Assembly: GCA_017442875.1 (NCBI GenBank) | Contig: JAFSPN010000046.1 | Location: 723 to 64,722, forward strand | Direction of reading: 5' to 3' | Source of the DNA: Bacilli bacterium | GTDB lineage: Bacteria > Bacillota_I > Bacilli_A > RFN20 > CAG-826 | DNA: 64,000 nt | Shown here: positions 9,322-12,300 of the stretch, one piece after another | How the letters are laid out: the number at the start of each line of letters is the position of its first letter | How positions within the stretch are numbered: position 1 is the first letter of the stretch | Translations under genes and position numbers: made by a program | Notes under the pieces: generated by a model | Database searches by the model: none | What the model was told of the DNA's origin: nothing | What the model saw: only the letters and a program-made list of their open reading frames with translations

Positions 9322-12300
9322 CTAATCTTCTTTTCTTTTCTTGGCTAACAAGACACCGACGCCCGCTAAAGCAGTTAAAGCGATTAACGATGAGGCAGTG
9401 GCAATAGAACCACCACAGCCACCTTCACAACCACGTTTTGATGTTTCGCCTTTTTCGAATATAACCATTTCGAAATCGGTACCGAGTGTGGTAGTTGTCT
9501 CGTCTTCAAATTCTAGTTCCACGAGGATGTGAATGAATTTGTTTGCAACTTCGTTAGCTTTGCCACTGATGGCGTATCCATCAAATGTTAATCCGTCTGG
9601 GAGCATTGTCGTTTCATCAATCGAGAGAGTGACATCATTGATAACTTTGTCTTTGTAATCACTACCTGCGGTTAATTCGTCTGGTAATTCTACTTCGATG
9701 TTGATTTTTTCGCCGACTCGAGCGGTGAATTGTTTGTTTTCAACACCAGATAAAATGACACCTTTAGCATCAGGGATTAGGTCTTTTGCCATAACGCCAG
9801 AGTTAACGTTGCTATATAGACAGCCTTTGCACATTTCTCTAACAGCGTACCACCATGAATATGATTCATAGGTTTCACCATCATATGTGAAGACTGGGCA
9901 ACCTCTTTCAGAGTCCCAACGGCAGTTCACATCATCAGCGTAATCGCTGCCATCTAATTGTTGGTTACAACCAGCTAAAATACGGTTATTGATATTTTCA
10001 TAGCATTTATTGACAAATGTGTTTGTATCACCACGACCACTACTACGGTGAGTCATATCGGAAATGATGTGTCCTTTAAAGCCCCATTCATCGCGGAGAA
10101 CTTCTGTTAATAATGGATAGCTTGCTGCTGTTTCCATTAATCCTAAACGGTTATAAGAAGACATGATACCCATGGATTTGCCCTCTTGGACCGCCATTTG
10201 GAATGGTTTGGCATAGATTTCACGCAATGCTTGTTCGGTAACGTAAGTCACAACGCCTTCACGATTTTGTTCTTGATCGTTAACCAAGAAGTGCTTGAAA
10301 TAACAATAGACACCTCTATCGGTAGCGCCGGCGACGACTCTACCACACATACGTCCGCTTAAGAACGGATCTGCTGAATAGTATTCAAAGTTTCTACCAC
10401 CGAATGGAGAACGGTGAATATTACAAGCTGGACCTGCCCAACCATACATGTTAGCAAGGTGACCTTCCATACCACAAGCTTCGCCTTGCTCTCTAGCTAA
10501 ATCAACATTGTATGTTGCAGCAACAATTGGTGCACCAACCCACCAAATAATTTCAAATTGGGATGGACCATCACTGTCGCCAGTGCTCTCTTTACCCATT
10601 CTAGAAATAGCAGGGTTGTGTGAACCACCACCAACGACAAATCTCATCATTTCTTCATATGTCATTTGGTTCATCAATTCTTCCCATCTTGGATCATCAA
10701 GTGGAACGCCGATCAAAGTATTGATTTGGATACTTTCTTCTTTGGAAAGAGTTGTGTTTGGTTGTGACCAACCCAAAGCTTCAATATCTTCTTTTGTCTT
10801 ATAGACTTTTTCTGGAACATATTCGAAATCTTTATCTATTTCAACATCAGCAATGTTGAATTTATGATTTAAGAATTCTTCAACCCTGCTGCCTTCTTTT
10901 AATTTACGATCTTCCATTGTTGGGAAGTGTGGGAAAGTGTCTTCAAAATTAGAACGACTAAATTGAGTAAATTCAACATCGTTTTCTAATGGTACTGAAC
11001 TATAGAAATCGTTATTAGAGAAACGGTTTTTAACTTCATTACCTGTGTAACGATCGTATCGATATTGCACGCCACCTTCGGCAACGGTTAGTTTAATCGA
11101 ACCTTCGTAGGCTTCATGAGCATTCTTGTTCAAGGTGATTTCATATTCGCCTTCATCTAACTCATAGCCTTTGAATTCATTATTGTTGGCGTCACTGAAA
11201 TCGTAGTTAGCGACATCTTGGAGATAGAACTTTAATGTCAATTCTTGTTCTTCGCCAGGTTCAAGTAATTTTGTTTTAGCAAAAGCACAAAGGACGCGAT
11301 CCGCTTTTTCAATTCCTTCATTATAGTAAGGTGCTTTCCAATATAGTTGGACAACATCTTTACCAGCTTTAGAGCCAGTATTTGTAACTTTGACTTTTAC
11401 TTCTGCTCTTGACTTACTATTTTTGGCATTGATTGTCTTGCCATTTAAATTGCATTTAAGGATTTCTTGATTGAATGATGTATAGCTTAAGCCATAACCA
11501 AATGGATAAATAACACCATAATCGCCGTCATACCATTCATTGGCTTCAGTCTCGTTTTCTTTGGCCATGTCTGCATATTTAGTTTCATAGTAACGATAGT
11601 CGACATAAATACCTTCTTCATATGAGACATATGACGCAGGTCTAACACCATTGATACCGGCTTTAACTACACCGTATTGTTTGCTATCCCATTGAGCGGC
11701 ACCACGATATGTGCCTTCACTCTTTACTGGGCTACCATCAGGTTTAAACATGGTGTCTTGCGACATGTGTTTAGCATCAGAGGTACCTTCGTTAGCAATA
11801 GGACCAGTTTGTGTATTAGCACTGAAGTTTTGCCATGTTGGATCGTTATTAAATTTACGAGCCCAGGTTTCAACGGTTCTTCCAGATGGATTGACTTGTC
11901 CGGTTAGAATTCGGCCAACCGCACCAGTACCAGTACAACCAGGTGTGCCCATCCAGAGGATGGCTTTGACTTTATCGTTGTTTTCAAACTGGTCACATTG
12001 GAAGATATTTCCTGAGTTAATCAAAATGATAATGTTGTTAAATTTTTCATTTAATAAATCAAACAAAGCTTGTTCATTATCGGATAATTGTAATGCGTGT
12101 TTTGTGGAGAAACCACCTTTCACACTATCGGTAACATCACATGTCTTAACGTCGCAGCCTTCACTACCTTCACGAGAAATTACTTGAATAGCGCAGTCAT
12201 TATATTGATCAAGAGAATTCTTAAGCGCTTCAGTATAAGAAGACATTGGTGTTTCACCAATCGTAACTTCCGAAATACCTTTATATCCAGAGTTACCATT

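What the first reader, a model, noticed from the sequence alone, without database searches (positions are those of the whole stretch)
9325..9438. Same C-terminal module on the GH3 paralog that has no lipobox
The tail reads KRGCEGGCGGSIATASSLIALTALAGVGVLLAKKRKED. The N-terminus (MKKKLLIPVFLAAIAAPLALSQSA) has no Cys, so it looks like a signal-peptidase-I type leader. Here the C-terminal module would be the only membrane tether. The ~150 aa preceding the tail (Ig-like region with LP[ED]GL[ST]F...ISG) have diverged strongly between the two paralogs. In contrast, the GC-x-GGC-x-G core, the helix length and the K-K/R-x-E-D end are retained, which suggests selection on the module itself.
Basis: seen in the sequence. 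Interest (0 to 1): 0.6.

Follow-up and report, generated by a model that had tools for sequence, protein, structure and literature searches.

The report
Cysteine C-terminal sorting tail on GH3
This secreted sugar-cleaving enzyme of an uncultured rumen/gut bacterium ends in a small cysteine-containing membrane tail, an uncatalogued protein-sorting signal that occurs with a coupled membrane protease and second lipid-transferase gene pair, which probably anchor the enzyme to the cell by a lipid on its C-terminus.

Summary
Window 9325-9438 (-) encodes the last 38 residues of a 1126-aa, domain-permuted GH3 glycosidase with a signal-peptidase-I-type leader and no lipobox.

In 41 homologues from 23 species of the genus, only one G-C-x-G is invariant (41/41). 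It lies 24-26 residues before a Lys/Arg cluster. The first Cys and the "ED" end are specific to this species.

The same tail sits on five unrelated secreted proteins in this genome: two GH3s, an S8 protease, an endonuclease-I and one more.

No curated model recognises the tail. There is no LPXTG motif, and no sortase was found in the 16 genomes of the genus searched.

The genome encodes an Rce1-like (CPBP) membrane protease whose gene overlaps a second Lgt paralogue. The canonical Lgt and LspA are also present.

In a sample of class Bacilli outside this genus, tails were found in 18 of 23 genomes carrying the protease homologue or pair, and in 0 of 50 without it.

Best reading: a Cys-type C-terminal sorting signal, mechanistically like MYXO-CTERM/myxosortase, here with a dedicated candidate lipid transferase. 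Lipidation and cleavage are inferred, not shown. I found no published description. Earlier follow-ups in this scan reached the same idea.

The parts
9322..12702 (-). Gene for a 1126-aa secreted GH3 glycosidase with permuted domain order (GH3_C 57-328, Fn3-like 449-525, GH3_N 727-884). This is clade A of four tail-bearing paralogue clades.
12631..12702 (-). Signal peptide, residues 1-24 (MKKKLLIPVFLAAIAAPLALSQSA). It has no Cys, and small residues at -3/-1 (S-Q-S-A|Q) fit signal peptidase I.
   Evidence: by inspection; the orthologue N-termini have no conserved Cys
9325..9438 (-). The 38-residue C-terminal tail: the sorting-signal candidate.
9409..9420 (-). Invariant signature G1095-C1096-G1097-G1098 (G-C-x-G). 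Cys1096 is the predicted modification site. The upstream GC (Cys1092) is not conserved.
   Evidence: 41/41 invariant; spacing register
9343..9405 (-). Hydrophobic transmembrane segment, residues 1100-1120. Its sequence varies freely among homologues but its length is fixed.
9325..9342 (-). Cytoplasmic basic cluster KKRKED, residues 1121-1126.
9264..9289 (-). Intrinsic-terminator-like hairpin (11-bp stem, then a T run) 33 nt after the stop codon. Together with a second one at 12981-13016 upstream, it suggests the gene is a transcription unit of its own.
5627..9073 (-). Tandem GH3 paralogue (clade B). The probable start is the ATG at 9073, with lipobox LLTAC. Its tail QKGCAGGCNGTMGIVGLSSALGIALAGLLAVNCLRSKKED is encoded at 5630-5746.
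24214..28452 (-). Unrelated S8 subtilisin-like lipoprotein (I9, S8, PA, fn3_5 domains) with the same kind of tail (RRSSCNGAIASLSAIICIPALMGATVLFFRKRKEGGK).
1298..4279 (-). Third GH3 paralogue, used as a contrast. It has an N-terminal signal-anchor helix and a C-terminal helix with no G-C-x-G motif.
   Evidence: orthologue tails ending ...FTALRKKE...

Best explanation
The tail is a lineage-specific, cysteine-type C-terminal protein-sorting signal. It has three parts: a K-x-G-C-x-G signature, one membrane helix and a Lys/Arg cluster.

Proposed pathway:
1. The GH3 enzyme is exported by Sec and its N-terminal leader is removed by signal peptidase I.
2. The C-terminal helix stops transfer and holds the enzyme at the outer face of the membrane, with the invariant Cys at the membrane boundary.
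3. The accessory Lgt paralogue (Lgt2) puts a diacylglycerol on that Cys.
4. The Rce1-like CPBP protease, encoded by the gene that overlaps lgt2, cuts off the helix and basic end just after the Cys.

The enzyme would then be tethered only by a C-terminal lipid. For the lipobox-bearing paralogue, both ends would carry a lipid.

Shown here: the module, its invariance and geometry, its presence on unrelated exported enzymes, the gene pair, and their co-occurrence. Inferred: that Lgt2 lipidates the Cys, that the CPBP cleaves, and the order of these steps.
For: (1) G-C-x-G is invariant in 41/41 GH3 homologues from four paralogue clades, while the flanking linker and the helix sequence vary freely. 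Cys to basic cluster is 24-26 residues in 43/43 tails.

(2) The tail is portable. In this genome it sits on two GH3s, an S8 protease, an endonuclease-I and a fifth ORF. All four complete ones have N-terminal export signals. In 21 of 22 other species of the genus there are several tail-bearing ORFs per genome, of unrelated sizes.

(3) The own genome has an Rce1-like CPBP gene (PF02517, 60.7 bits) with the EExxxR, FxxxH and HxxxN/D motifs intact. In the AF2 model (pLDDT 87.8), the two best PDB matches are the CPBP structures SpdC and Rce1. This gene overlaps by 17 nt an Lgt paralogue (PF01790, 116 bits).

(4) The overlapping pair is present in 18/18 genus members inspected, in genus g3 and in genus g28, which are the three tail-positive genera of the family. 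The 17 tail-less genomes of the family lack the CPBP homologue, and 12 of them have only the long canonical Lgt1.

(5) In six other families of the class, 20 genomes have the CPBP homologue, 15 of them next to an Lgt of the same type. Outside this genus, 18/23 genomes with the CPBP or pair have tails at E<=1e-4, against 0/50 without. Six of the positives were not in the HMM training set.

(6) The pair lies 4.4-6.1 kb from the tandem tail-bearing GH3 genes in nine species (coordinates).

(7) The canonical N-terminal pathway is complete without the pair: Lgt1 scores above the TIGR00544 cut-off and LspA is present.

(8) Precedent: MrtX, a CPBP protease, was shown experimentally to cleave the Cys-type MYXO-CTERM. 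The authors propose prior lipidation by an unidentified 'Lgt-like' enzyme (PMC11980579).
Against: - There is no biochemical evidence of any kind for lipidation or cleavage here.
- Co-occurrence is not corrected for phylogeny, and part of the tail HMM was trained on CPBP-positive genomes.
- Three CPBP-positive genomes (G055, G271, G307) gave no tail hit, and two (G082, G111) only weak ones.
- The Lgt2 signature (GRxGCxxAGCC) is not specific to the system. The same type of Lgt occurs in Christensenellales and Coproplasma Clostridia with no adjacent CPBP and no convincing tail-bearing gene in the ±8-kb flanks; the loose pattern flagged only polytopic-looking C-termini. It also occurs uncoupled in some tail-less Bacilli.
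- In this genome the pair is 102 kb from the GH3 genes.
- The CPBP scores far below the curated myxosortase models (25 bits against 75; 17 against 100).
- The Cys precedes the helix, the inverse of a lipobox, so an Lgt would need a different way of recognising its substrate.
- The genome has a second Rce1-like gene (C6:10944).
Confidence: 0.6

Rival explanations
1. The tail is a plain, unprocessed stop-transfer membrane anchor. The helix itself is the permanent tether. G-C-x-G is then a helix-cap or interface motif, possibly S-acylated or disulfide-forming, and the CPBP-Lgt2 pair serves something else.
For: The tail has every feature of a type-I anchor: hydrophobic helix, positive-inside end. 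The pair is 102 kb away in this genome. CPBP proteins have other known roles, such as bacteriocin immunity (own knowledge).
Against: An anchor does not need an invariant Cys. The third GH3 paralogue and its orthologues keep a C-terminal helix without one. The helix sequence drifts freely while G-C-x-G and the spacing are fixed, as in cleaved signals. Tails track the CPBP-Lgt pair across families.
Confidence: 0.2
2. The tail is a cleavage or release signal only. The CPBP, or another protease, cuts at G-C-x-G and sheds or repositions the enzyme without lipidation. Lgt2 is merely a second lipobox (N-terminal) transferase that happens to be co-transcribed.
For: The Lgt2-type enzyme appears to be an ordinary Lgt in many Clostridia. 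Rumen glycosidases are often released. [quoted passage not shown]
Against: Translational coupling of CPBP and Lgt2 is kept in both gene orders across at least 7 families. The family already has a universal Lgt1 plus LspA. Rce1-type enzymes act on lipidated Cys (PMC11980579). An invariant Cys is not explained by cleavage alone.
Confidence: 0.13
3. The tail is an LPXTG-like cell-wall sorting signal processed by a sortase, or a PEP-CTERM or other known signal.
For: The isolated tail scores 18.7 bits against TIGR01167 LPXTG_anchor (cut-off 15.9), with weak PEP_CTERM and PFE_CTERM hits.
Against: The match covers only model positions 6-33, that is the helix and the basic end. There is no LPXTG, PEP or PFE motif in the tail. 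In the full protein the score is below cut-off (12.2). No sortase (PF04203) was found in any of the 16 genomes of the genus searched. No LPXTG-type tails exist in the genome.
Confidence: 0.01

Closest known systems
MYXO-CTERM with myxosortase MrtX (Myxococcota; Haft 2023 bioRxiv 10.1101/2023.06.07.544157; mBio 2025, PMC11980579)
   Same: A tripartite C-terminal signal with an invariant Cys next to Gly, then a helix, then a basic cluster. It sits on many unrelated exported proteins. The cognate enzyme is an Rce1-like CPBP glutamic intramembrane protease. The proposed order is lipidation of the Cys, then cleavage.
   Different: This is a monoderm Bacilli lineage, so there is no outer membrane and no T2SS step. 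The motif is K-x-G-C-x-G with a Lys-rich end, not GCGC with an Arg-rich end. No curated MYXO-CTERM model hits. The protease is below the Mrt_core cut-off (17 against 100 bits). There are only a few substrates per genome, not dozens. Here a dedicated Lgt paralogue is translationally coupled to the protease, whereas in myxobacteria the lipidating enzyme is unknown.
JDVT-CTERM/MrtJ, Synerg-CTERM/MrtS and CGP-CTERM/MrtA (the other Cys-type signals in Haft 2023)
   Same: The same architecture and the same protease superfamily. MrtJ is the best-scoring named sorting-protease model for this CPBP; a generic CPBP-fusion model, ABC_perm_CPBP, scores slightly higher (27.7 bits against a 435 cut-off).
   Different: The score is 25.1 bits against a cut-off of 75. 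None of these tail models is matched. The taxa differ (Proteobacteria, Synergistota, Thermococcales). No Lgt partner is mentioned in Haft's preprint ('Lgt' occurs 0 times).
Classical bacterial lipoprotein pathway (lipobox, Lgt, LspA)
   Same: The transferase is of the Lgt family, with the R143-, Y235-, R239- and E243-equivalent residues kept (E. coli numbering from my own knowledge; alignment to 5AZB). The Cys lies at the outer membrane boundary next to a helix that a membrane protease then removes.
   Different: It is a mirror image. The Cys precedes the helix and sits at the C-terminus. The removing enzyme would be a CPBP protease, not the aspartyl protease LspA. Lgt2 has Cys where E. coli has N146 and E151, and it falls below the TIGR00544 cut-off (81 against 118.9).
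Eukaryotic/archaeal CAAX processing (prenyl-Cys, then Rce1 cleavage)
   Same: A lipid is put on a Cys near the C-terminus, and an Rce1-type enzyme then removes the residues after it. Rce1 (4CAD) is the second-best structural match of the CPBP model.
   Different: Here about 30 residues, including a membrane helix, would be removed instead of three. The site is extracytoplasmic. The probable lipid is diacylglycerol, not an isoprenoid.

Membership tests
Cys-type tripartite C-terminal sorting signals (the class holding MYXO-, JDVT-, Synerg- and CGP-CTERM) | Signature motif, then one hydrophobic helix, then a basic cluster at the extreme C-terminus | tested here: met
   the Cys lies 24-26 residues before a cluster of 3-5 K/R, which is followed by 0-5 further residues and the stop
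Cys-type tripartite C-terminal sorting signals | An invariant Cys in the signature motif | tested here: met
   the G-C-x-G columns are 100% identical in 41 homologues. The Cys is also present in the S8, nuclease and C36 tails and in the tails of other families.
Cys-type tripartite C-terminal sorting signals | Carried by several unrelated exported proteins in one genome | tested here: met
   GH3 (two), S8 peptidase, endonuclease-I and one more. All four complete ones have N-terminal signal peptides or lipoboxes.
Cys-type tripartite C-terminal sorting signals | A cognate CPBP/Rce1-like protease that co-occurs with the signal | tested here: met
   18/23 genomes with the CPBP or pair have tails, against 0/50 without (not corrected for phylogeny)
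Cys-type tripartite C-terminal sorting signals | The tail is actually cleaved and the Cys modified | not testable with these tools
   This needs protein chemistry.
Named sorting-domain models (TIGR03901 MYXO-CTERM, TIGR04564 Synerg-CTERM, JDVT-, CGP-, PEP-, PGF-, GlyGly-CTERM, LPXTG) | A score above the curated cut-off of the model | tested here: not met
   no Cys-type model is listed even at E<=1. Only the helix and basic part of LPXTG_anchor matches, and only on the isolated tail.
Myxosortase family (NF040914 Mrt_core; NF033192 MrtJ) | A score above the curated cut-off | tested here: not met
   17.2 bits against 100, and 25.1 bits against 75
CPBP / Rce1-like glutamic intramembrane proteases (PF02517) | A Pfam score above the gathering cut-off, catalytic motifs EExxxR, FxxxH and HxxxN/D, and the fold | tested here: met
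   60.7 bits against 22.4. E122, E123, R127, F156, H160 and H204 are invariant; the top two PDB matches are SpdC 6u0o and Rce1 4cad (TM about 0.48, modest E-values).
Prolipoprotein diacylglyceryl transferase Lgt (PF01790 / TIGR00544) | Family-level match, and equivalog-level match | tested here: inconclusive
   Lgt2 is above the PF01790 cut-off (116 bits) but below the TIGR00544 equivalog cut-off (81 against 118.9). Lgt1 (516 aa) is above it (136.8). Lgt2 is a family member whose substrate is unproven.
LPXTG / sortase cell-wall anchoring | An LPXTG (or variant) motif before the helix, and a sortase in the genome | tested here: not met
   no such motif, and no PF04203 hit in 16 genomes of the genus
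N-terminal bacterial lipoprotein (for this GH3) | A lipobox Cys at the end of the signal-peptide h-region | tested here: not met
   the first Cys is at residue 52. Clade-A orthologues have no conserved Cys.
Glycoside hydrolase family 3 | GH3 N- and C-terminal domains | tested here: met
   both domains plus Fn3-like are above cut-off, in the permuted order C, Fn3, N

The most novel reading that the evidence does not exclude
The Lgt paralogue coupled to the CPBP protease is the long-sought enzyme that lipidates cysteine-type C-terminal sorting signals. That would define a mirror-image lipoprotein pathway in monoderm Bacilli, and apparently in Clostridia. It would leave enzymes such as this GH3 attached by a C-terminal S-diacylglyceryl-cysteine, and lipobox-bearing paralogues attached by lipids at both ends.
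Probability: 0.45. Interest if true: 0.85.

Novelty: new variant of a known kind. Interest (0 to 1): 0.65.

Why it matters
Cys-type C-terminal sorting signals are known, and one protease (MrtX) has been confirmed experimentally. The enzyme that modifies the invariant Cys is still unidentified. The 2025 mBio paper only speculates that it is an "Lgt-like acyl-transferase".

Here, in sortase-less rumen and gut Bacilli, the signal travels with a translationally coupled CPBP-Lgt gene pair. That gives a concrete, testable genetic candidate for the missing step.

It also bears on practice. It tells how fibre-degrading enzymes (GH3s), proteases and nucleases are held on the surface of uncultured rumen bacteria. 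It would improve annotation, since these tails are currently read as plain helices. And it offers a compact tag for surface display.

This particular GH3 is the cleanest natural test case, because it has no N-terminal lipid anchor to confound localisation.

Tried and rejected
- The doubled GC-x-GGC-x-G as the functional core: rejected. Only this genome's two paralogues have it. The second Cys is in the conserved register.
- Recent gene conversion between the two tandem tails as the cause of the shared doubling: rejected. The DNA of the two tails is not similar. Why both paralogues of one species carry the doubling remains unexplained.
- The Cys-rich Lgt2 signature (GRxGCxxAGCC) as a marker of the system: rejected. 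The same signature is found in uncoupled Lgt genes of Clostridia (61 loci) and of some tail-less Bacilli.
- The search for related loci with the CPBP alignment: failed, because no stretch was conserved enough. I used the Lgt2 alignment instead. It mostly returned uncoupled clostridial Lgt genes.
- PDB sequence search with the CPBP profile: no meaningful hit. Fold search was needed.
- Literature searches for a second Lgt, or for CPBP with Lgt and C-terminal sorting: only PMC11980579 was relevant.
- A sortase, PEP-CTERM or PFE-CTERM reading of the weak HMM hits: rejected, because only the helix and basic part match.
- My automated N-terminus trimming cut some sequences at an internal Met. The N-terminal classes were therefore read from the untrimmed print-outs.
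Full report
**1. The observation**

The ORF at window 9322-12702 (- strand) encodes a 1126-aa protein. Its last 38 codons, 9325-9438, read KRGCEGGCGGSIATASSLIALTALAGVGVLLAKKRKED, exactly as reported.

Pfam finds GH3_C (57-328), Fn3-like (449-525) and GH3_N (727-884), so this is a GH3 glycosidase with permuted domain order.

The N-terminus is MKKKLLIPVFLAAIAAPLALSQSA|QE. It has a basic n-region, a hydrophobic core and small residues at -3/-1. The first Cys is at residue 52. There is no lipobox, and the leader is of the signal-peptidase-I type (by inspection).

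A strong terminator-like hairpin follows the stop codon (9289-9264) and another precedes the gene (13016-12981), so the gene looks monocistronic.

The neighbouring paralogue (5627-9151; probable start at 9073) has the lipobox LLTAC and ends QKGCAGGCNGTMGIVGLSSALGIALAGLLAVNCLRSKKED.

**2. What is conserved**

The genome is a 1.32-Mb, 36.5% GC assembly. Record titles of its genus call it "Bacilli bacterium", "Erysipelotrichaceae" or "Erysipelotrichia". The samples come from rumen, omasum and horse faeces; two isolate codes (AS08…, AS10…) look like anaerobic-digester bins, which the titles do not state.

A six-frame search of 40 relatives found the tandem GH3 genes throughout the genus. I collected 41 full-length homologues. 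They fall into four paralogue clades, and all 41 end in the same kind of tail.

Column statistics:
- G1095, C1096 and G1098 are identical in 41/41 sequences.
- Lys at -2 is present in 83%.
- The doubled GC-x-GGC-x-G exists only in this genome's two paralogues.
- Mean top-residue frequency is 0.71 for the catalytic core, 0.45 for the Ig-like region and linker, 0.34 for the linker alone, and 0.53 for the tail.

So the tail as a whole is not strongly conserved. Three columns, the hydrophobicity and the geometry are. From the last C-x-G to the first terminal Lys/Arg is 24-26 residues in 43/43 tails, followed by 3-5 basic residues. That register identifies the second Cys of the doubled motif as the homologous one.

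The "ED" ending is local. Orthologues end in KKRRVNA, LRKKRRA, KRKEEDN and so on.

Between the two paralogues, identity is 52-63% in the core and 40% in the 150 residues before the tail. That region gives only sub-threshold He_PIG matches. The DNA of the two tails is dissimilar, so there has been no recent gene conversion.

**3. The N-terminal anchor changes, the tail does not**

- Clade A (this gene) has no conserved Cys in the leader: PLAL, PFAI or PLCL, followed by VNA|E-type sites.
- Clade B has LLTAC in four species and no Cys in three.
- Clade C has a conserved LP[AVL]C.
- Clade D has no Cys.

A third GH3 paralogue (1298-4279) and its orthologues carry a C-terminal helix with no Cys motif. 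At the same time, a plain helix anchor without the motif exists in the same gene family.

**4. Portability**

In this genome the tail also ends three other proteins:
- an S8 subtilisin-like lipoprotein (window 24214-28452);
- an endonuclease-I protein (C44:164446-166263);
- a fifth ORF on contig C36.

A profile of 19 tails found several tail-bearing ORFs of unrelated sizes in 21 of 22 other species of the genus and in a second genus of the family. In seven other families of the order it found nothing beyond helix-only noise.

NCBIfam release 20 has no model that recognises the tail. The only above-cut-off hit is the helix and basic part of LPXTG_anchor, on the isolated peptide. There is no LPXTG motif, and no sortase in the 16 genomes of the genus searched.

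**5. Candidate processing enzymes**

I had the CPBP idea from the known Cys-type signals. Earlier notes of this scan added the lead of an Lgt partner. I tested both.

At C44:115193-115969 the genome encodes a 258-aa Rce1-like protein. It scores 60.7 bits against PF02517 but lies below the MrtJ and Mrt_core cut-offs. Its gene overlaps by 17 nt that of a 273-aa Lgt paralogue (C44:115953-116774). This Lgt2 scores 116 bits against PF01790 and 81 bits against TIGR00544, below the 118.9 cut-off.

The CPBP keeps EExxxR, FxxxH and HxxxN/D. Its AF2 model (pLDDT 87.8) has the two CPBP structures, SpdC and Rce1, as best PDB matches.

The canonical enzymes are present separately:
- a 516-aa Lgt1 after uvrA, scoring 136.8 bits against TIGR00544;
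- LspA.

All 20 genomes of the family that I checked have the long Lgt1, and 12 of the 17 tail-less ones have only that.

The Lgt2 signature GRxGCxxAGCC has Cys where E. coli Lgt has N146 and E151. The numbering is from my own knowledge; the alignment to 5AZB is. This signature is not specific to the system. The same type occurs as an uncoupled Lgt in Christensenellales and Coproplasma Clostridia and in some tail-less Bacilli.

**6. Co-occurrence**

- The overlapping pair is present in 18/18 genus members inspected (order CPBP then Lgt2).
- It is present in genus g3 and genus g28 (order Lgt2 then CPBP). These are the three tail-positive genera of the family.
- In nine species the pair lies 4.4-6.1 kb from the tandem tail-bearing GH3 genes. 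In this genome it is 102 kb away.
- In a 301-genome sample of the class, 20 genomes of six other families have a full-length CPBP homologue. In 15 of them an Lgt of the same type is adjacent.
- Their tails read TGCFGS..., ETGCGSAING..., SGCGSS... and KGCFGG....
- With a broader tail profile at E<=1e-4, 15 of these 20 genomes are positive, six of them not used in training. None of 50 CPBP-negative genomes is positive.
- Counting g28 as well, this gives 18/23 against 0/50 (Fisher p = 6e-13). By genus it is 8/11 against 0/43. Neither figure is corrected for phylogeny.

**7. Mechanism**

Shown: a conserved, portable, geometrically fixed Cys tail on exported enzymes; a coupled CPBP-Lgt2 pair; and their co-distribution.

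Inferred by analogy: lipidation of Cys1096 by Lgt2 at the outer membrane face, then removal of the helix by the CPBP, leaving a C-terminal lipid anchor. The analogy is to MYXO-CTERM/MrtX, where cleavage has been shown and prior lipidation by an unknown "Lgt-like" enzyme is proposed (PMC11980579), and to CAAX/Rce1 processing.

For this GH3, that lipid would be the sole tether. For the lipobox paralogue and the S8 protease, both termini would be lipidated.

Rivals are a plain unprocessed anchor, or cleavage without lipidation. Sortase-type anchoring is excluded.

**8. Novelty**

The held literature has no paper that links CPBP, Lgt and a C-terminal Cys signal other than the myxosortase paper. 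Haft's preprint mentions neither Lgt nor Firmicutes. The tail is not in the curated libraries.

It is therefore a new variant of a known kind. The added value is a genetic candidate for the unidentified lipidation step.

Earlier follow-ups of this scan, on the sibling tails at 5630-5746 and 24217-24330, reached the same reading. That is not independent evidence, but I re-derived each element here.

Noticed in passing
window 9322-12702, 5627-9151, 1298-4279; whole genome: All three GH3 genes have the permuted domain order GH3_C, Fn3-like, GH3_N. The family is greatly expanded: 24 GH3 matches in this 1.3-Mb genome and 12-30 in most relatives.
   Followed up: partly
window 9409-9432 and 5699-5722 (approx.): Both tandem paralogues of this one species carry a doubled GC-x-G-GC-x-G, which none of 39 homologues has. 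Yet their DNA is dissimilar. Whether this is parallel change, old conversion or a link to this species' processing enzymes is unexplained.
   Followed up: partly
G000 C46:12261-13811 (outside the window): The canonical Lgt is 516 aa long, with extra membrane segments at both ends. It lies between uvrA and a HAD phosphatase/thioredoxin reductase. Long forms (417-738 aa) occur in all 20 genomes of the family that I checked.
   Followed up: partly
G000 C36:154-279 (outside the window): A fifth tail-bearing ORF sits on a 2.5-kb contig and is truncated at its 5' end. Its tail is KTGGCNASINGDSSIIFIAAIGGLVLAIRKAYSLRKKEE, with C-N-A instead of C-x-G.
   Followed up: no
L029-L044 (clade C GH3 genes of relatives): The N-termini have a conserved L-P-[A/V/L]-C. 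This is probably an unusual lipobox, with Pro at -2 and often Val or Leu at -1.
   Followed up: no
window 5627-9151: The longest ORF starts at a TTG 26 codons upstream of the MKKK signal peptide. The ATG at 9073 is the likely true start. A -35/-10-like site lies at 9202-9175 (-).
   Followed up: no
G005:C109:8397-8816 and G005:C5:8588-9010 (relative): Here the Lgt domain hits are partial (model positions 116-239 and 10-145). One lies in an open frame of 453 aa. This may be a fusion with the CPBP gene, or an assembly artefact.
   Followed up: no
G000 C46:17927-22312 (outside the window): A 1461-aa RHS/YD-repeat-like protein with a variable C-terminal end lies near the canonical lgt locus.
   Followed up: no
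G117 (family f1, genus g23): This CPBP-negative genome has a short Lgt of the Cys-rich type and a weak tail-like hit (E = 2.9e-4, on a 378-aa ORF). It may be a degenerate or divergent version of the system.
   Followed up: no
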